From a virus (taxonomy: Duplodnaviria; Heunggongvirae; Uroviricota; Caudoviricetes), in the IMG/VR virus record IMGVR_UViG_3300033072_001087, positions 1 to 50,815 of that record: 50,815 bases of DNA. One strand, written 5' to 3'. The notes below the pieces were generated by a model. That model worked only from the letters and a program-made list of their open reading frames with translations, was not told the origin of the DNA and ran no database searches. Each line of letters starts with the position of its first letter. Position 1 is the first letter of the stretch. The position numbers were made by a program, and so were the translations under genes. This document shows, piece by piece, positions 15,549 to 23,739 of the stretch.

Positions 15549-16949
15549 ATGAGCAAAGATCATCAGATTTTTCAGGGTTTTCTGCGCGGTAGAAACCTCA
15601 CCGACGCCGAGCGCAAAGAGGCGTGGCGCACGCTGAACGACTACGGAATCGTTGTTGCGAAGGGGTACGTCGAGTCGGTGCTGGCGCAGAAGCAGTCGAA
15701 TATCCGCGTAAACAGCGTCCCGAAAGAGTACGCTGTGTATGGCGAAAGCGGAATCGAACCGGGCGCGCTGCAGCAAATGAACAATGCGATGCGGTTGCCG
15801 ATCGCGGTTGCTGGTGCTTTGATGGCGGATGCGCATCAGGGCTACGGGCTACCGATTGGCGGCGTATTGGCAACGGATAACGCGGTTGTTCCGTATGCCA
15901 TTGGCGTCGATATTGCCTGCCGGATGCGTGTTTCGGTGTTTCCGATCGAGCCGGAAGCGCTCAAGCGCGATCAGGCCTTGTTTGAAGAAGCCCTGCTGAA
16001 GAACACCATCTTCGGCGCTGGCGCGGCTGGATTGAATGACGGCACAATCGACCACGCGGTTCTTGATGAGTGGTTGTGGTCGGCGACGCCGCTGTTAAAA
16101 TCGCTTCGTGAGACTGCAATACGTCAGATTGGAACTTCGGGTGGCGGCAACCATTTCGCGGATTTTTGCGACTTGTTCCCGGTCTGGGAAGATAGCTTAG
16201 GCATTCCAGACGGTAAATATGTAGCATTGATGACGCACAGCGGTTCGCGCGGTGTTGGCTTCAAGATCGCCAATACCTATACCGAAATCGCCAAGAAACG
16301 CTGTGTAGGACTGCCAAAAGAAATGGAGAATCTGGCGTGGCTTGACATGGACAATGAAGAGGGGCAAGAGTATTGGTACGCCATGAACCTTGCCGGGTTG
16401 TTCGCCGCAGCCAATCATCAGATCATCCACGACCGGATCGCGGCGGCATTGGGTGTTGAGCCAATTCTAAAGATTGAGAATCATCACAATTTCGCGTGGA
16501 GCGAAAATGTTGTGGTAGACGGGGAATCGAAGTCGTGTATTGTACATCGTAAGGGCGCGACTCCGGCTGGAGTGGGAGTGCGCGGCGTGATTCCCGGTTC
16601 GATGGGGGATGTTGGCTACCTTGTGCAAGGGCGCGGCAATGACGAGTCGCTCAATTCAGCGCCACACGGAGCGGGGCGGATGATGAGCCGCACGCAAGCC
16701 ATCAAGACGATCGCGCAAGTAGATACTGATGAATATCTACGCATTCAAGGCGTCTTGAAGGTTATAGGTGGCGGTAAAGACGAGTCGCCGTTTGCGTACA
16801 AGGAAATTGGCAAAGTCATGCGCGCCTCTGAAGATCTGGTCGATAAAATCGGGGTTCTGTATCCGCGTATCGTTAGGATGGCGGATGATACGCTGTCAGC
16901 GCCAAGAGACGAATCGGTTAAGGGGATTGTCCTAGACGAAGGATCGTAG
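15549..16949 (+). CDS. rtcB: RtcB RNA 2',3'-cyclic-phosphate/5'-OH ligase
   Basis: MADAHQGYGLPIGG, GVDIAC, GTSGGGNHF, HSGSRG, HHNFA, HRKGAT, IPGSMG, SAPHGAGR, DESPFAYK. Confidence 0.95.
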   Translation: MSKDHQIFQGFLRGRNLTDAERKEAWRTLNDYGIVVAKGYVESVLAQKQSNIRVNSVPKEYAVYGESGIEPGALQQMNNAMRLPIAVAGALMADAHQGYGLPIGGVLATDNAVVPYAIGVDIACRMRVSVFPIEPEALKRDQALFEEALLKNTIFGAGAAGLNDGTIDHAVLDEWLWSATPLLKSLRETAIRQIGTSGGGNHFADFCDLFPVWEDSLGIPDGKYVALMTHSGSRGVGFKIANTYTEIAKKRCVGLPKEMENLAWLDMDNEEGQEYWYAMNLAGLFAAANHQIIHDRIAAALGVEPILKIENHHNFAWSENVVVDGESKSCIVHRKGATPAGVGVRGVIPGSMGDVGYLVQGRGNDESLNSAPHGAGRMMSRTQAIKTIAQVDTDEYLRIQGVLKVIGGGKDESPFAYKEIGKVMRASEDLVDKIGVLYPRIVRMADDTLSAPRDESVKGIVLDEGS

Positions 16950-19280: not shown

Positions 19281-20090
19281 ATGGTAATTCCAGACTACGA
19301 TCCTACATTGTCAACGGTTGATCGCGGACTTGGCGCGTATAACATCATTCTCGCCTATCGGGGCAGTGTAGCACACGGGATGTATATTCCGAACACGGAT
19401 CCGCACAGCGTCGATGATATAGATCTCATTGGCGTTGTTATTCCGCCGATCGATCATTATTTCGGGCTGCGCCATTACGCAAACGATGGCACAAAAGAGA
19501 TCAAGCAGGGCAAGTGGGATGTTGTCATTTACGAAGCACGCAAGGCTGTGCGGCTGTTAAGCAAGGGCAACCCCAACATCCTGTCGCTTTTGTGGTCGGA
19601 CGCCGAGCATTACATCAACGTTTCTCGCGAGGGGCAGATGCTTATCGACTCGCGCCTCTTGTTTCTGACCAACGAGATCAGCGGCTCGTTCTACGGCTAT
19701 GCGCGTGCGCAGATGCACAAGATGGAACATGGAGCCTATAATGGCTTCATGGGCGAGAAACGTAAACAACTGGTCGATAAGTTCGGCTATGACTGTAAGA
19801 ACGCGAGTCATCTGATTCGTCTGTTACGCATGGGCGCTGAAGCGCTGGAGGCAGGCGAACTGAATGTCAACCGCGCTAACATTGACGCTCAAGAACTACT
19901 GGCAATTAAGACCGGGCAGTATACCCTTGAGCAGGTTAAGGCGATGGCAAGCGATCTGTTTGTTCGGTTGGAACGCGCGCGTAAAGTCAGCGTGCTGCCG
20001 AATAAGCCGGATGCGCGGATGATCGATGATCTACTCACCGAAATGATCGCGGCGCGAATGCGCTATTATGCTCAAGTCGGAGTCGAATGA
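19281..20090 (+). CDS. Pol-beta-superfamily nucleotidyltransferase, RlaP/YcgL-like
   Basis: YRGSVAHG...SVDDIDLIGV, KGNPNILSLL, GYDCKNASHLIRLL. Confidence 0.82.
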   Translation: MVIPDYDPTLSTVDRGLGAYNIILAYRGSVAHGMYIPNTDPHSVDDIDLIGVVIPPIDHYFGLRHYANDGTKEIKQGKWDVVIYEARKAVRLLSKGNPNILSLLWSDAEHYINVSREGQMLIDSRLLFLTNEISGSFYGYARAQMHKMEHGAYNGFMGEKRKQLVDKFGYDCKNASHLIRLLRMGAEALEAGELNVNRANIDAQELLAIKTGQYTLEQVKAMASDLFVRLERARKVSVLPNKPDARMIDDLLTEMIAARMRYYAQVGVE

Positions 20091-20458
20091 TGGCCGATCT
20101 CAAGATGGTACTCCATTGGGAAAAGCTACCGGAATATTTTCATGAGGTAAAACATTTCCAAGACTTGATCGACGTGCTGTCGATTCATTCGACTTATACG
20201 GCGTCACTGATCAGCACCGCAACCGGCTGCAAAGAGCATGAGGCAGAAGCGGTTCTGAAATACATGACGGACGAAGGGTTGACACGGCATTACTGGACGG
20301 TTGCGCATGTTCTGTGGCGCAGCGCGCAGCAAATCGTTTGTCGAAAACAGCCGTTATTTCCGCTTAAGTACAAGGGATATGACGGCAAGACTCGGCTGCT
20401 GCAGCGCAAAGATGCGATGATCACAGATACCTATGATTTGGTTCAAGCTAAGCCTTGA
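20087..20458 (+). CDS. hypothetical protein
   Basis: Coupled ORF. Confidence 0.6.
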   Translation: MMADLKMVLHWEKLPEYFHEVKHFQDLIDVLSIHSTYTASLISTATGCKEHEAEAVLKYMTDEGLTRHYWTVAHVLWRSAQQIVCRKQPLFPLKYKGYDGKTRLLQRKDAMITDTYDLVQAKP

Positions 20459-20483
20459 CGACGGTTGTAGGGCGTGATACAAT
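20455..20483 (+). promoter_or_regulatory. promoter for the Y-like RNA array
   Basis: TTGACG-17-TACAAT with TG extension, about 10 nt before Y1. Confidence 0.75.
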
Positions 20484-20492
20484 AACTTTCAT

Positions 20493-20620
20493 GGTGTGGG
20501 GCGCGCAGATCGGGTTATCTGATTAGTTCGACTCTAATCGCCCCTAGTTGAGGGGCGACGCCGCGAGGCGCGGCAAACCGTCTATATGGCGGCGATCCGG
20601 TTTGGTTTTTTATCCACGCC
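20493..20620 (+). ncRNA. Y-RNA-like element Y1
   Basis: Shared scaffold; cargo begins with a T-arm (gattag-TTCGACT-ctaatc) and a closed stem gcccct/aggggc. Confidence 0.75.
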
Positions 20621-20634
20621 AGTGTTTGGAAACA

Positions 20635-20769
20635 ATAGCGGGGCGCACGAGGTTCGGTTATCGACTTGTAATCGGGATGTCATGGGTTCGAGTCCCATTC
20701 ATCGCCAAAAGCGGTGATAGCTCAGTGGATAGAGCGCCAAAAACACCGATCTCAATTTTTATCCGCTAT
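20635..20769 (+). ncRNA. Y-RNA-like element Y2 (permuted tRNA-Thr-like)
   Basis: Scaffold plus anticodon arm (ctTGTaa), T-arm, loop-closed acceptor and D-arm, in that order. Confidence 0.85.
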
Positions 20770-20785
20770 ATTGCAACGCTTTTAG

Positions 20786-20928
20786 AGGCGGGGCGCAGTG
20801 TGTCGGTTATCACATACTTGTAAATATGAGGTTGCGGGTTCGAGTCCCGTCACGGTTGAGCCAGTAATGGGGTAGCCGTGTAGCTCAATTGGTAGAGAAA
20901 CTACCCGACGCGCATTTATTATCCGCCT
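20786..20928 (+). ncRNA. Y-RNA-like element Y3 (permuted tRNA-Thr-like)
   Basis: Scaffold plus cttgtaa loop, T-arm, acceptor cacggtt/agccgtg and D-arm. Confidence 0.85.
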
Positions 20929-20930
20929 GT

Positions 20931-21001
20931 GGAGACGTGGTGCAGCGGCAGCACGACACCTTGTCACGGTGTAAGCACGGGTTCGATTCCCGTCGTTTCC
21001 G
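20931..21001 (+). tRNA. tRNA-Asp(GTC)
   Basis: acacc-ttGTCac-ggtgt; G73. Confidence 0.9.
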
Positions 21002-21031
21002 ATGGTTGTACGCACATACACAAGGGAAAGA

Positions 21032-21560: not shown

Positions 21561-21690
21561 GCGCGGGGCGCTGAGAGTCGGTTATCGCATTCGGAGCGGG
21601 TGGGGCAGGTTTGAGTCCTGCTGCCTGTACATGCAGGCATGGTGTAGGGACAGCACACCTAAAACACCGACATTCACTTTTTATCCGCGC
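21561..21690 (+). ncRNA. Y-RNA-like element Y4 (YrlA-like topology)
   Basis: Scaffold plus T-arm gcagg-tttgagt-cctgc, closed acceptor tgcctg/caggca and D-arm. Confidence 0.82.
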
Positions 21691-21705: not shown

Positions 21706-21799
21706 ATGACGGGGCGCATGTTACTGGTTATCAGGTTGAAAACTCTCCCAAAGGGTTCAGCGGTTCAAATCCGCGCCAGTACAATTTTTTATTCGTCAT
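21706..21799 (+). ncRNA. Y-RNA-like element Y5
   Basis: Scaffold plus a ttgaaaa loop, ccc-aaa-ggg hairpin and T-arm gcgg-ttcaaat-ccgc. Confidence 0.78.
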
Positions 21800-21817
21800 A
21801 ATCGAATACGAGCTATA

Positions 21818-21906
21818 CAGGTGGGGCGCGGCGCACGGGTTATCAAACAAAGACCATCCAAGTCTTCCGGTTAGAATACAATACCGGCGCATCCTTTATC
21901 CACCTG
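21818..21906 (+). ncRNA. Y-RNA-like element Y6
   Basis: Scaffold plus hairpin aagac-catccaa-gtctt. Confidence 0.75.
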
Positions 21907-21922
21907 CTTGAAGAAAAATGCG

Positions 21923-21986
21923 CGGCGGGGCGCTAGAGTTCGGTTATCTATTGCGAACAGATCCGACTCGACATTTATATCCGCCG
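21923..21986 (+). ncRNA. Y-RNA-like element Y7 (minimal)
   Basis: Scaffold plus a single hairpin with a ttGCGaa loop. Confidence 0.75.
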
Positions 21987-22000
21987 TCTTTTTACAAGCG

Positions 22001-22025
22001 AAGCGCCGCATGGCGCTTTTGTTTT
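22001..22025 (+). terminator. intrinsic terminator between the Y array and the Ro60 gene
   Basis: aagcgcc-gcat-ggcgctt followed by ttgtttt. Confidence 0.65.
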
Positions 22026-22047: not shown

Positions 22048-23739
22048 ATGCCACGCAAGAAAACGACTTACGGTGGGGCGTTCAGCACGGGAATTCCGCA
22101 GACTCCACAAAACCAGCCAATTCCGGGTCGCGAGAGCGAAATGGAACAAATGGCGTCGGGAGGCTATGGGTTTAAGCTGGAAGACGAACAACGGCTTATG
22201 CGCTTTTTGGTGCTGGGGACGGAAGGCGGCGGATACTACGAAGATGAAGTGACGCTGACCAAGCAAAACGTTGCGGTCTTGACGCGCTTTATCAAGCAGT
22301 CGCCGGAGCGGTTCGTACCGATTTTAATGGATGTGCGTCGGCGCAAACTTGCGCTCAAACAGTCGCCGGTGATTTTCGCGTTGGCGGTCGCCACAACGTT
22401 CCAAGCGACGCGTCGTGCCGCGTTGGATGCTGTTTCCGACATTTGTCAGAACGCATCGCAGTTGTTCGAGTTTTATGCCGCCCTGAAAGACATCGGCGGG
22501 GATAAGAGCAATCGTTCGCTGCGGCGCACGCTGGCGCGGTGGTACGAAGGCAAGGACGCGCGATCGATCGTTTATCAGGCGATCAAGTATCGTAACCGCA
22601 ATGGCGTGAGCCACGCGGATATGATTCGCATTGCGCATCCTCATTCCGCAGATGCGCAAGTCAACGACGTACTGGCGTGGGTCATCGATCGCGCGACAAA
22701 CACGGACGAAGCGGCACTTCAGCGGATGACGGTTTTGCAGCGCGAAATGGCGAAGTCACGGCGCGGACAAGCCCACGCGCAAGCTGAACGCGCACTGCGC
22801 GACAATGAACAATTGTTCGCGTTTGAAGGACTGCAAGCTGCGCAAAACGCGAAAGAAGCGGCAATCCTGATCAAGCGTTATAACCTGCCGCGCGAGGCGG
22901 TGCCAACACAGTTCTTGAATGACCGCGACGTATGGGCTGCACTAGCAGAGAACATGCCATATGAAGCGCTGGTGAGAAACTTGAACAAGATGACTGCGGT
23001 CGGGCTGATCGATCCGTTTCGACGTGACGAATGGCTGAAGCGGCTGACGAATAAGGAATTGATCGTCAAGTCGCGCATTCATCCGCTGCGCCTGTTGATT
23101 GCCGCCAAGCAGTACGGAGTCGGGCACGGCGATAAAGGGTCGCTGACGTGGACTCCGGTACAGAGTGTGATGGCGGGACTGGACGAGGCGTTTGCGATTG
23201 CGATGACACATAATATCGAGCCGATTCAGGAGAACGTCGTCGTTGCCATCGACGTGTCCGGCTCAATGCGATGGGCGAGCGTGAGCGGCATCGACAACTT
23301 GCTGTCTGCGGAAGCGGCTGCGGTAACGGCTGCGATTTACGCGCGCGCCAATCCGCATACGGTTGTGATCGGCGTCGATACACGCATTCACGATTTGCCG
23401 ATTTCGTCGGTCACGTCGATCGCTGAAGCCTTCAAGATCGCCAATAGCTATGGCGGAGGCGGGACCGATCTCGGCGAGGCGTTCCGTTATGTCAACAGCA
23501 AGCTGCCGCAGGCGGACGGCGTGCTGATGATCACGGACAACGAGAGCTGGCGTGGGCGCGAACACACAGCACAAGCAAAGGCGCGCAAGAGCGGGAAACC
23601 GCTGCGCTGGGTGAATGTGGCGACGAGCGCCAACCGTGCATCGGTGGTCGATCCGAATGATCGGGATAGTCTAAGCCTGTGCGGATTTAGCGCAGATGTC
23701 ATGACTATCTCTAACCTGTTTTTCTCGCATCAAATCTAA
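22048..23739 (+). CDS. rsr: Ro60/TROVE-domain RNA-binding protein (TROVE + vWA)
   Basis: GGYGF...RLMRFLVLGTEGGGYY, KYRNRNGVSHADMIR, MPYEALVRNL, SRIHPL, MIDAS motif DVSGSM, GGTD, ITDNES. Confidence 0.95.
   Translation: MPRKKTTYGGAFSTGIPQTPQNQPIPGRESEMEQMASGGYGFKLEDEQRLMRFLVLGTEGGGYYEDEVTLTKQNVAVLTRFIKQSPERFVPILMDVRRRKLALKQSPVIFALAVATTFQATRRAALDAVSDICQNASQLFEFYAALKDIGGDKSNRSLRRTLARWYEGKDARSIVYQAIKYRNRNGVSHADMIRIAHPHSADAQVNDVLAWVIDRATNTDEAALQRMTVLQREMAKSRRGQAHAQAERALRDNEQLFAFEGLQAAQNAKEAAILIKRYNLPREAVPTQFLNDRDVWAALAENMPYEALVRNLNKMTAVGLIDPFRRDEWLKRLTNKELIVKSRIHPLRLLIAAKQYGVGHGDKGSLTWTPVQSVMAGLDEAFAIAMTHNIEPIQENVVVAIDVSGSMRWASVSGIDNLLSAEAAAVTAAIYARANPHTVVIGVDTRIHDLPISSVTSIAEAFKIANSYGGGGTDLGEAFRYVNSKLPQADGVLMITDNESWRGREHTAQAKARKSGKPLRWVNVATSANRASVVDPNDRDSLSLCGFSADVMTISNLFFSHQI

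What the first reader, a model, noticed from the sequence alone, without database searches (positions are those of the whole stretch)
20635..20928. Y2 and Y3 contain circularly permuted tRNAs that keep a Thr(UGU)-type anticodon loop
Seen in the sequence: the cargo order is anticodon arm (cga-CTTGTAA-tcg in Y2; an imperfect cata-CTTGTAAA-tatg in Y3), variable loop, T-arm (TTCGAGT), acceptor 3' strand, loop, acceptor 5' strand, D-arm (TAGCTCA..GG.TAGAG). The acceptors are full 7-bp helices closed by a loop (tcatcgc/gcggtga; cacggtt/agccgtg). Established knowledge: YrlA has this T-before-D permutation, but the Ro-binding stem replaces the anticodon arm. Permuted tRNA genes in some algae and archaea mature through a ligated circular intermediate. 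Inference: these are either decoys presenting an anticodon loop to host anticodon nucleases, or precursors that the co-encoded RtcB could circularise before the acceptor loop is opened.
Basis: partly seen in the sequence, partly recalled or inferred. Interest (0 to 1): 0.88.

Follow-up and report, generated by a model that had tools for sequence, protein, structure and literature searches.

The report
Phage Y RNAs with anticodon-arm mimic
Two small RNAs beside a phage Ro60 gene are tRNA look-alikes of the known YrlA type; the hairpin read as an anticodon arm is that family's published 'V' stem-loop, and it copies a real anticodon arm closely in about half of the family members I examined.

Summary
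Y2 (20636-20768) carries a complete tRNA-shaped module in this order: hairpin, 5-nt variable loop, T arm, closed 7-bp acceptor, D arm. Y3 (20786-20928) is a degraded copy with an 8-nt loop, no closing trans pairs and a D-stem mismatch. Y4 (21561-21690) is a third such module.

All are YrlA-class Y RNAs, co-oriented upstream of a phage Ro60 gene. The hairpin itself is not new. Chen et al. 2014 call it the 'V' (variable-arm) stem-loop and include a mycobacteriophage.

What I add comes from 111 non-redundant modules in 174 Ro60 loci:
- The hairpin sits in the exact anticodon-arm register in 51-56 modules.
- Its loop has the anticodon-loop frame: C32, U33, a free triplet, R37, A38, with G37 following G36.
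- Two bases after the D arm pair in trans with 42-43. The Ro60-binding stem is therefore an insertion between positions 28 and 29 of a full anticodon stem.

The loop frame is conserved across homologues; the triplet is not. Maturation into a working tRNA is unlikely. The best reading, untested, is a Ro60-tethered tRNA mimic or bait within the phage's tRNA-repair island. Both functional ideas are already in print. This scan has met YrlA-like permuted modules on other DNA before.

The parts
20455..20483 (+). sigma-70-like promoter (TTGACG, 17 nt, TACAAT with TG) in front of the Y1-Y2-Y3-tRNA-Asp block
   Evidence: 10 of 12 matches; consensus match only
20636..20768 (+). Y2: YrlA-class Y RNA with terminal stem, GGGGCGC/GGTTATC scaffold and a complete tRNA-shaped cargo
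   Evidence: Rfam YrlA 31.8 bits, E 7e-5; own model R1 94.2 bits; fold of the terminal and inner stems
20662..20674 (+). Y2 anticodon-arm-like hairpin (the V stem-loop of the YrlA literature): cga / CTTGTAA / tcg = positions 29-31, 32-38, 39-41
   Evidence: sequence; exact tRNA register; covariation in homologues
20675..20676 (+). GG = positions 42-43, pairing in trans with CC 20737-20738 (positions 28, 27) after the D arm
   Evidence: trans pairs present in 81% and 86% of 111 modules, with many compensatory types
20677..20698 (+). 5-nt variable loop ATGTC and T arm (ATGGG / TTCGAGT / CCCAT)
20699..20717 (+). 7-bp acceptor-like stem closed by the loop CAAAA; predicted RNase P site between 20710 and 20711, by analogy with M. 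smegmatis YrlA
   Evidence: sequence; folds in the MFE structure; analogy from PMC4201824
20718..20738 (+). U8-A9, D arm (GCTC / AGTGGATA / GAGC), G26, C27 C28
20786..20928 (+). Y3: divergent YrlA-class Y RNA. T arm and 7-bp acceptor are intact. The hairpin is cata / CTTGTAAA / tatg (20813-20828) with an 8-nt loop. There are no 27-28:42-43 pairs and one D-stem mismatch. Its 3' end abuts tRNA-Asp.
   Evidence: Rfam YrlA 31.8 bits; R1 48.3 bits; model alignment; alternative hairpin in the MFE fold
20930..21002 (+). tRNA-Asp(GTC) directly after Y3
21561..21690 (+). Y4: third module of the same build (cgc / ATTCGGA / gcg, GG:CC trans pairs, deviant T loop TTTGAGT)
   Evidence: R1 59.8 bits at 21574-21674; alignments
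22048..23739 (+). Ro60 (TROVE + Ro60 vWA domains), the presumed protein partner
   Evidence: Pfam PF05731 E 3.5e-34 and PF25045 E 4.5e-22
15549..16949 (+). RtcB RNA ligase (context)
   Evidence: Pfam PF01139 E 3.7e-78
19281..20090 (+). RlaP-family nucleotidyltransferase (context)
   Evidence: Pfam PF10127 E 4.1e-22

Best explanation
Y2, its degraded sister Y3, and Y4 are YrlA-type Y RNAs, the small non-coding partners of the phage's Ro60 protein.

How the RNA is made and folds. They are probably made from the promoter at 20455 as one precursor together with Y1 and tRNA-Asp. The two ends of each RNA pair, and the shared GGGGCGC...GGUUAUC scaffold is the presumed Ro60 handle. The cargo folds like a whole tRNA. 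The two bases after the D arm (27-28) pair with 42-43. Bases 29-31 and 39-41 close a 7-nt loop built like an anticodon loop. The variable loop, T arm, closed 7-bp acceptor and D arm complete the tRNA core. The Ro60-binding stem leaves this anticodon stem through a nick between 28 and 29. The hairpin called the 'V arm' in the literature is therefore the lower anticodon stem plus loop.

What it does. The RNA presents a full tRNA shape, anticodon loop included, to tRNA-recognising proteins while tied to Ro60. Most likely it serves as bait, competitor or recruiting handle in the contest over tRNA damage and repair. The neighbouring RtcB, RlaP and 17-18 tRNA genes also serve that contest.

Shown here: the sequence anatomy, the register, the covariation and the loop composition. 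Inferred: Ro60 binding, the L-shaped fold, processing and the function.
For: Family and context:
- Ro60, RtcB and RlaP lie on the same strand.
- Rfam YrlA matches Y2 and Y3 at E 7e-5. Bxz1, a close relative of the published phage ET08, scores no better (32.5 bits).
- Homologous modules lie upstream of Ro60 genes in Microbacterium, Caulobacter, Mycobacterium, Gordonia and Rhodococcus phages.

Register and stems:
- 51 of 111 modules have a 7-nt loop closed by at least 3 pairs, exactly where positions 32-38 should lie. Shuffles give 8.5 +/- 2.8.
- 27:43 and 28:42 pair in trans in 81% and 86% of modules. The full 2+3 bp stem is present in 56 of 111, against 0-10 in other registers and 1-17 when the trans partner is slid by one or two positions.
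- On 94 model-aligned bacterial hits, the hairpin is 82% paired and the trans helix 88% paired, and every pair shows two-sided changes.

Loop composition:
- The loop frame is C32 73%, U33 91%, R37 86%, A38 89%, with 25 different triplets.
- 402 real tRNAs from the same loci give C32 65%, U33 90%, R37 98%, A38 68%.
- G37 follows G36 (Fisher p 4e-6 on unique loops). The same association holds in the real tRNAs (p 9e-12).

tRNA-likeness of the whole module:
- With the Ro stem removed and the acceptor loop opened in silico, ARAGORN of 56 modules tRNAs. Y2 becomes a 76-nt tRNA-Thr(tgt).
- Model R1 scores Y2 at 94.2 bits.
- From the literature: YrlA is modified by TruB and DusA, and M. smegmatis YrlA is cut by RNase P and receives CCA. 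The YrlA core is L-shaped in a crystal structure.
Against: - Single-sequence folding does not recover the Y2 hairpin. The MFE is -42.0 kcal/mol against -34.4 for the proposed structure. With the T arm, acceptor and D arm enforced, a different 3-bp helix wins.
- The cis stem is only 3-4 bp.
- Y3 does not fit the register, and its MFE fold places the triplet inside a stem.
- About half of the modules lack the hairpin, so it is dispensable for the family.
- The modules are related to one another, so the counts are not independent. The ARAGORN test and the model-based alignment lean towards the structure I selected for.
- The window's handle (GGGGCGCA) departs from the published GNCGAAN0-1G motif.
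- No expression, processing, binding or modification data exist for this phage.
- The only YrlA tested against an anticodon nuclease (Salmonella) has no such loop and was not cleaved.
Confidence: 0.7

Rival explanations
1. Specific decoy. The anticodon-like loops are sacrificial or competitive targets for host anticodon nucleases. Y2 would mimic tRNA-Thr(UGU), and co-encoded RtcB would reseal the cut RNA.
For: - Context of RtcB, RlaP and a tRNA array.
- The Y2 and Y3 loop CUUGUAA is identical to the loop of the phage's own tRNA-Thr.
- AriB of PARIS cleaves tRNA-Lys(UUU), Thr(UGU) and Asn(GUU) at U36AAUC|A41 (PMC12409363). Y2 reads U36AAUC|G41, whereas the phage's own tRNA-Thr and tRNA-Lys read UAAGC.
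- GUU and UGU are among the commonest triplets in the family.
- CcrColossus and CcrPW differ at 2 of 3 triplet bases, with identical hairpin stems and T arm and three further changes in the long acceptor region.
- The authors of PMC12409363 themselves suggest that viral tRNAs may compete for AriB.
Against: - The host and its defences are unknown.
- Only 4 of 68 hairpins carry UAAUC.
- Many triplets (AUG, AGG, AUC, UCA) match no usual tRNA.
- The Big4 and Zooman homologues with the same loop have G39.
- No cleavage data exist.
- The AriB rule comes from one E. coli system.
Confidence: 0.2
2. Relic or spacer. The hairpin is a leftover of the tRNA from which YrlA arose, or a plain structural 'variable arm'. 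It has no anticodon-related role, and the resemblance is inherited rather than selected.
For: - Chen et al. call it less conserved and name it V.
- Half of the modules lack it, Salmonella YrlA included.
- A tRNA origin of YrlA has been proposed in print.
- The stem is short and thermodynamically weak.
Against: - Positions 32, 33, 37 and 38 and the 7-nt length are kept, while the triplet and the stem bases turn over. This holds across loci whose Ro60 proteins share only about 30% identity.
- The G36-G37 coupling is maintained.
- The hairpin lies 5' of the bases (42-43) that pair with 27-28, so it cannot be a variable arm by tRNA numbering.
- Un-permuted Y2 is no closer to the phage's tRNA-Thr than to its other tRNAs, so this is not a recent capture.
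Confidence: 0.2
3. Permuted pre-tRNA. The Ro stem is excised, RtcB joins 28 to 29 to form a circle, and RNase P/Z open the acceptor loop. The product is a working tRNA-Thr.
For: - The module has every tRNA part and a 7-bp acceptor.
- Y2 has G1-C72, C2-G71, G35 and U36, which from my own knowledge are E. coli ThrRS identity elements.
- RtcB is co-encoded.
- M. smegmatis YrlA is opened by RNase P and gains CCA.
- Wang et al. raised this possibility.
Against: - There is no bulge-helix-bulge motif at the junction (sequence), and no splicing endonuclease is known in bacteria.
- The phage already has tRNA-Thr(UGU).
- Homologues with Ser-type GCU triplets have 5-nt variable loops, and others carry A34 or stop-reading triplets.
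- Big4 and Zooman, with the same loop, lack C2-G71.
Confidence: 0.04
4. The hairpin does not form in the RNA. The region pairs with the T-loop side or with GGUUAUC instead, and the tRNA-like look is a coincidence of this copy.
For: The MFE and centroid structures of Y2 use 20663-20673 in another helix. A 7-bp alternative, TTCGGTT with AATCGGG, exists.
Against: These alternatives are not conserved. The tRNA-register hairpin recurs with compensatory changes in dozens of loci. The T arm that the MFE structure disrupts is the most conserved element of the family.
Confidence: 0.05

Closest known systems
YrlA (Y RNA-like A; Rfam RF02553) of Salmonella Typhimurium, M. smegmatis and mycobacteriophages (Chen et al. 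2014, PMC4201824; Wang et al. 2018, 10.1101/312249)
   Same: - Encoded beside Ro60 and co-oriented with it.
- The ends pair into a Ro60-binding stem.
- The T arm precedes the D arm, and the acceptor-like stem is closed by a loop.
- The YUAY motif is conserved.
- Many members have a fourth 'V' stem-loop upstream of the T arm.
- The acceptor is 7 bp, as in M. smegmatis YrlA, which RNase P cleaves.
   Different: - Salmonella YrlA, the solved structure, has no hairpin and is said to lack the anticodon loop.
- The literature files the hairpin as a variable arm. Here it occupies positions 29-41, with two trans pairs above it.
- The window's Ro60 handle reads GGGGCGCA rather than GNCGAA.
- The locus holds about seven Y-like RNAs in one array.
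Deinococcus radiodurans Yrn1
   Same: It is a Ro60-bound Y RNA with a T-arm-like hairpin. Chen et al. noted a potential 'anticodon arm' in it.
   Different: The arms are in a different order. It has a 6-nt loop and no full D arm, and it is judged to be an independent lineage.
Circularly permuted tRNA genes of Cyanidioschyzon merolae and other algae, and of Thermofilum pendens (cited)
   Same: The 3' half is encoded before the 5' half, the acceptor is initially closed, and the ends pair.
   Different: Those genes mature through a bulge-helix-bulge cut and a ligated circle into working tRNAs. Here there is no such motif, no such enzyme is known in bacteria, and the break lies at 28/29.
Two-piece (circularly permuted) tmRNA of alphaproteobacteria and some cyanobacteria (my own knowledge, not checked here)
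   Same: A bacterial tRNA-like domain is encoded in permuted order and functions as a processed, non-contiguous RNA.
   Different: tmRNA is aminoacylated and enters the ribosome with SmpB. It has no anticodon arm and no Ro60 partner.
Phage tRNAs that neutralise tRNA-cleaving defence (T5 tRNA-Lys, Thr and Asn against PARIS AriB; PMC11464382, PMC12409363)
   Same: Phage-encoded RNAs carry anticodon stem-loops of the targeted kinds within tRNA arrays. Competition for the nuclease has been suggested.
   Different: Those are ordinary working tRNAs with resistant stems. Y2 is a Ro60-tethered mimic carrying the sensitive-type UAAUC.

Membership tests
YrlA-class Y RNA | Encoded within a few kb of a Ro60 (TROVE) gene, on the same strand | tested here: met
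   Y2 and Y3 lie 1.1-1.4 kb upstream of the TROVE + vWA gene at 22048-23739, on the + strand
YrlA-class Y RNA | 5' and 3' ends pair into a stem that carries the Ro60-binding motif GNCGAAN0-1G | tested here: inconclusive
   Terminal and inner stems are present. The motif reads GGGGCGCA(C/G), conserved in Y2-Y4, but differs from the published consensus
YrlA-class Y RNA | tRNA-like module with the T arm 5' of the D arm, an acceptor-like stem closed by a loop, and conserved T- and D-loop bases | tested here: met
YrlA-class Y RNA | Conserved YUAY before the V region | tested here: met
   UUAU at 20658-20661 within GGTTATC; the motif is present in 42 of 51 hairpin modules
YrlA-class Y RNA | Reaches the Rfam RF02553 gathering score (69 bits) | tested here: not met
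   31.8 bits for Y2 and Y3. Bxz1, a close relative of the published phage ET08, reaches only 32.5 bits, and other phage and bacterial modules 31.7-42.3 bits. The cut-off therefore excludes accepted members.
YrlA-class Y RNA | Bound by Ro60/Rsr in cells | not testable with these tools
   needs immunoprecipitation
Circularly permuted tRNA gene (algal/archaeal type) | Bulge-helix-bulge motif at the junction of the paired ends, cut by the splicing endonuclease | tested here: not met
   At the base of the Y2 inner stem, a 3-nt strand (UAU, the end of the conserved UUAU) and a 6-nt strand (AAAAAC) face each other. This is not two 3-nt bulges 4 bp apart. No bacterial enzyme is known.
Circularly permuted tRNA gene (algal/archaeal type) | Matures into a contiguous, aminoacylated tRNA | not testable with these tools
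   No RNA data. Contig joints from D arm to T arm carry other organisms' anticodon arms, not Y3's.
Canonical tRNA gene | Contiguous order of acceptor, D arm, anticodon arm, variable loop, T arm, acceptor | tested here: not met
   Neither ARAGORN nor Rfam tRNA reports a hit in 20635-20928. It is called a tRNA only after in-silico un-permutation.
tRNA variable arm (class II type) | Hairpin lies 3' of position 43-45, between the anticodon stem and position 48 | tested here: not met
   The hairpin lies 5' of the two bases that pair with 27-28. A standard 5-nt variable loop follows them. The loop is 7 nt with the anticodon-loop frame.

The most novel reading that the evidence does not exclude
The 'V arm' of YrlA Y RNAs is a selected anticodon stem-loop mimic that obeys the same loop rules as real tRNAs. 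Phage Y-RNA arrays would then display panels of anticodon loops on Ro60 as decoys or damage sensors for anticodon nucleases. Y2 would be a Thr(UGU)/AriB-type bait (U36AAUC) that RtcB can reseal.
Probability: 0.2. Interest if true: 0.85.

Novelty: new member of a known kind. Interest (0 to 1): 0.5.

Why it matters
What the tRNA-like domain of bacterial and phage Y RNAs does, and which protein reads it, has been an open question since 2014. The published picture is a tRNA core without an anticodon loop, plus a loosely conserved 'variable arm'.

If that arm is in fact the lower anticodon stem and loop, kept in exact register with a conserved loop frame and a freely changing triplet, then many YrlA RNAs are whole tRNA mimics with a Ro60 handle spliced in at 28/29. 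This narrows the list of likely partners to proteins that read anticodon stem-loops: anticodon nucleases, position-37 modification enzymes and repair ligases. It also gives simple assays.

For this phage it ties the Y RNAs to the neighbouring RtcB, RlaP and tRNA genes as one tRNA-damage countermeasure. For annotation, it explains why pieces of Y RNAs are deposited as odd tRNAs in phage records.

Tried and rejected
- RNA evidence: no RNA holder is listed for 20440-21010. The two runs labelled RNA-Seq are held as contigs and look like DNA. Nothing can be said on expression, RNA ends or a ligated form.
- The 'go-back' joints from 20897 to about 20830 are ordinary tRNAs of other organisms that share the D and T arms. 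Their intervening letters are foreign anticodon arms, so they do not show a circularised Y3.
- Close relatives of this phage: the Ro60 protein alone found none in viral contigs or metagenome contigs. The scaffold pattern GGGGCGC-N8-9-GGTTATC gave only single matches per contig, which I take to be chance matches. Conservation of the loop within this lineage could therefore be judged only from near-identical metagenome contigs, which show no change in the hairpins. That comparison has little power.
- Free search for the best hairpin upstream of the T arm was too noisy because of competing short helices. I replaced it with a fixed-register test.
- MAFFT and the covariance model both misplace one gap where GGTTATC overlaps the stem. 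Model-based counts therefore understate the hairpin.
- Single-sequence folding does not support the hairpin.
- Two reviews (PMC10870794, PMC6047535) and the supplement of Chen et al. are not held. I cannot exclude that the anticodon-like look of the V arm has been remarked on there.
- Recent derivation of Y2 from the phage's tRNA-Thr is rejected: Thr is not among its six closest tRNAs.

Full report
**What is there.** The window is the first 50.8 kb of a 114.8-kb IMG/VR virus record, estimated 74% complete. It carries a co-oriented block of 17-18 tRNA genes. The block also holds RtcB (15549-16949), an RlaP-family nucleotidyltransferase (19281-20090) and a Ro60 gene with TROVE and Ro60-vWA domains (22048-23739). 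A strong sigma-70-like promoter lies at 20455-20483. Between it and Ro60 lie several stem-closed small RNAs that share the scaffold GGGGCGC...GGTTATC...TTATCCGC.

The anatomy described for Y2 is exact. In order it reads: hairpin cga/CTTGTAA/tcg (20662-20674), GG, variable loop ATGTC, T arm (20682-20698), acceptor strands TCATCGC and GCGGTGA closed by CAAAA, TA, D arm (20720-20735). Y3 has the T arm and a 7-bp acceptor. Its hairpin, however, has an 8-nt loop (cata/CTTGTAAA/tatg, 20813-20828), and its D stem has a mismatch. Rfam's YrlA model matches both at 31.8 bits, E 7e-5, below the 69-bit cut-off. ARAGORN sees no ordinary tRNA there.

**The hairpin is a known element.** A distant blastn search with the region hit only unannotated or mis-annotated spots just upstream of Ro60 genes, in Microbacterium phages Big4 and Zooman and Caulobacter phages CcrColossus and CcrPW. 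A scan for T-before-D modules in Ro60 loci of cultured phages found the same hairpin in many:

| Phage | Hairpin |
|---|---|
| Bxz1 | ctc/ATTGCAA/gag |
| Pumpernickel | ccg/CTGCTAA/cgg |
| BearBQ | ctc/CTGCTAA/gag |
| Mareelih | cga/ATTGGGA/tcg |
| FuzzBuster | cac/CTGTTAA/gtg |
| Trina | cctt/CTGCAAA/aagg |
| Big4 | cgc/CTTGTAA/gcg |
| CcrColossus | tcga/CTGTTAA/tcga |

Chen et al. [quoted passage not shown] Their alignment includes mycobacteriophage ET08, a close relative of Bxz1. Bxz1's YrlA scores only 32.5 bits on the Rfam model, so missing the cut-off is not a reason to exclude Y2 and Y3.

**Is 'anticodon arm' nevertheless the better name?** I collected 174 Ro60 loci: 13 cultured phages, 80 IMG/VR contigs, 80 bacterial genomes and this window. 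From them I extracted 111 non-redundant T-before-D modules that are not tandem tRNAs.

- *Register.* In a tRNA, loop 32-38 ends 10 nt before the T stem. A 7-nt loop closed by at least three pairs sits exactly there in 51 modules. Shuffles give 8.5 +/- 2.8 (maximum 16), and every other loop length or offset gives 2-28.
- *Trans pairs.* The two bases after the D arm and N26 pair with the two bases just before the variable loop (27:43 and 28:42). This holds in 81% and 86% of all modules, with many compensatory pair types.
- *Composite stem.* Two trans pairs plus three cis pairs give a full 5-bp anticodon stem in 56 of 111 modules. Other registers give 0-10, and sliding the trans partner gives 17, 4 and 1.
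- *Covariation.* On 94 bacterial hits aligned to my model R1, the hairpin is 82% paired and the trans helix 88% paired, with two-sided changes at every pair. That alignment is fitted to the model, which favours the structure.
- *Topology.* The Ro60-binding stem leaves the anticodon stem between positions 28 and 29. Because the hairpin lies 5' of 42-43, it cannot be a variable arm by tRNA numbering.

**The loop.** In the hairpin modules position 32 is C in 73%, 33 is U in 91%, 37 is a purine in 86% and 38 is A in 89%. Positions 34-36 are almost free, with 25 triplets among 51 modules. For comparison, 402 real tRNAs from the same loci give 65%, 90%, 98% and 68%. G37 occurs almost only after G36 (14 of 17 against 2 of 39; p 1e-8, or 4e-6 on unique loops). 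The same coupling is seen in the real tRNAs. From my own knowledge this is the G36-G37 rule of m1G37 tRNAs.

After removing the Ro stem and opening the acceptor loop in silico, ARAGORN of 56 modules tRNAs of 74-78 nt, and Y2 becomes tRNA-Thr(tgt). This test is partly circular, because I selected the modules for the stem.

R1 scores Y2 at 94.2 bits, Y4 (21574-21674, cgc/ATTCGGA/gcg) at 59.8 bits and Y3 at 48.3 bits. Y3 lacks the trans pairs and the register.

**Caveats.**
- Thermodynamic folding of Y2 alone does not give the hairpin: the MFE is -42.0 kcal/mol against -34.4 for the proposed structure.
- The modules are related, so the counts are not independent events.
- About half of the modules, Salmonella YrlA included, have no hairpin. 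Wang et al. say of the Salmonella RNA that it 'lacks the anticodon loop'.
- Two reviews were not available.

**Function.** Nothing here is tested experimentally.

*Against the precursor idea.* The phage already has tRNA-Thr(UGU) with the same loop. Homologues carry Ser-type GCU triplets on bodies with 5-nt variable loops, and others carry A34 or stop-reading triplets. [quoted passage not shown] There is no bulge-helix-bulge motif, and the idea needs an endonuclease unknown in bacteria, as Wang et al. note where they raise the same possibility.

*For a bait or decoy role.* The RtcB/RlaP/tRNA context fits. The loop frame is conserved while the triplet changes quickly: CcrColossus and CcrPW differ at 2 of 3 triplet bases, with identical hairpin stems and T arm. 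[quoted passage not shown] The phage's own tRNA-Thr and tRNA-Lys read UAAGC. This last point is a lead from one E. coli system, and only 4 of 68 hairpins carry UAAUC. Hughes et al. had already suggested that YrlA might compete with an anticodon nuclease.

**Verdict.** The object is a new member of the YrlA family, and the hairpin is the family's known V stem-loop. The anticodon-arm reading is well supported by comparison and appears not to be stated in the papers I could read. The specific functional claims remain open. This scan has noted YrlA-like permuted modules in many other genomes.

Noticed in passing
window 21561-21690: Y4 has the same composite anticodon arm (cgc/ATTCGGA/gcg with GG:CC trans pairs) and a deviant T loop TTTGAGT. 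R1 scores it at 59.8 bits.
   Followed up: partly
window 20802 joined to 21940: One 151-nt contig of a wastewater run joins the start of Y3 to Y7, skipping 1137 bases (Y3-Y6 and the embedded ORF). It looks like a strain with a shorter array, produced by recombination between the shared scaffolds.
   Followed up: no
L001 2986-3053; L002 2650-2717; L015 3592-3800: Pieces of Y RNAs are deposited as tRNAs in phage records. These are Big4 gene 182 'tRNA-Ser(cga)', CcrColossus 'tRNA-Gln', and probably Trina's 209-nt pseudo 'tRNA-OTHER' just upstream of Ro60.
   Followed up: partly
window 22000-22019: A terminator-like hairpin with a T run lies between the last Y RNA and the Ro60 start codon (22048). 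The Y array and Ro60 may therefore be separate or attenuated transcription units.
   Followed up: no
window 20928-20931: Y3's closing stem ends one or two bases before tRNA-Asp. RNase P cleavage of the tRNA would therefore also make Y3's 3' end.
   Followed up: no
L002 2692 vs L014 2694: The near-identical phages CcrColossus and CcrPW differ in one Y-RNA loop at two of the three 'anticodon' bases (ATCTGGA vs ATTAGGA). The hairpin stems and T arm are identical, and three further changes lie in the long acceptor region.
   Followed up: no
Rfam RF02553 on L009, L018, L001, L121: The Rfam YrlA model stays far below its gathering score on phage, actinobacterial-phage and other non-enterobacterial modules (31.7-42.3 bits against 69). 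Standard annotation will miss most of them.
   Followed up: partly
window 20493-20624 and 21706-21990: Y1 carries only a T-arm-like hairpin (gattag/TTCGACT/ctaatc) plus three GC-rich hairpins. Y5-Y7 carry smaller cargos on the same scaffold. I did not analyse them further.
   Followed up: no
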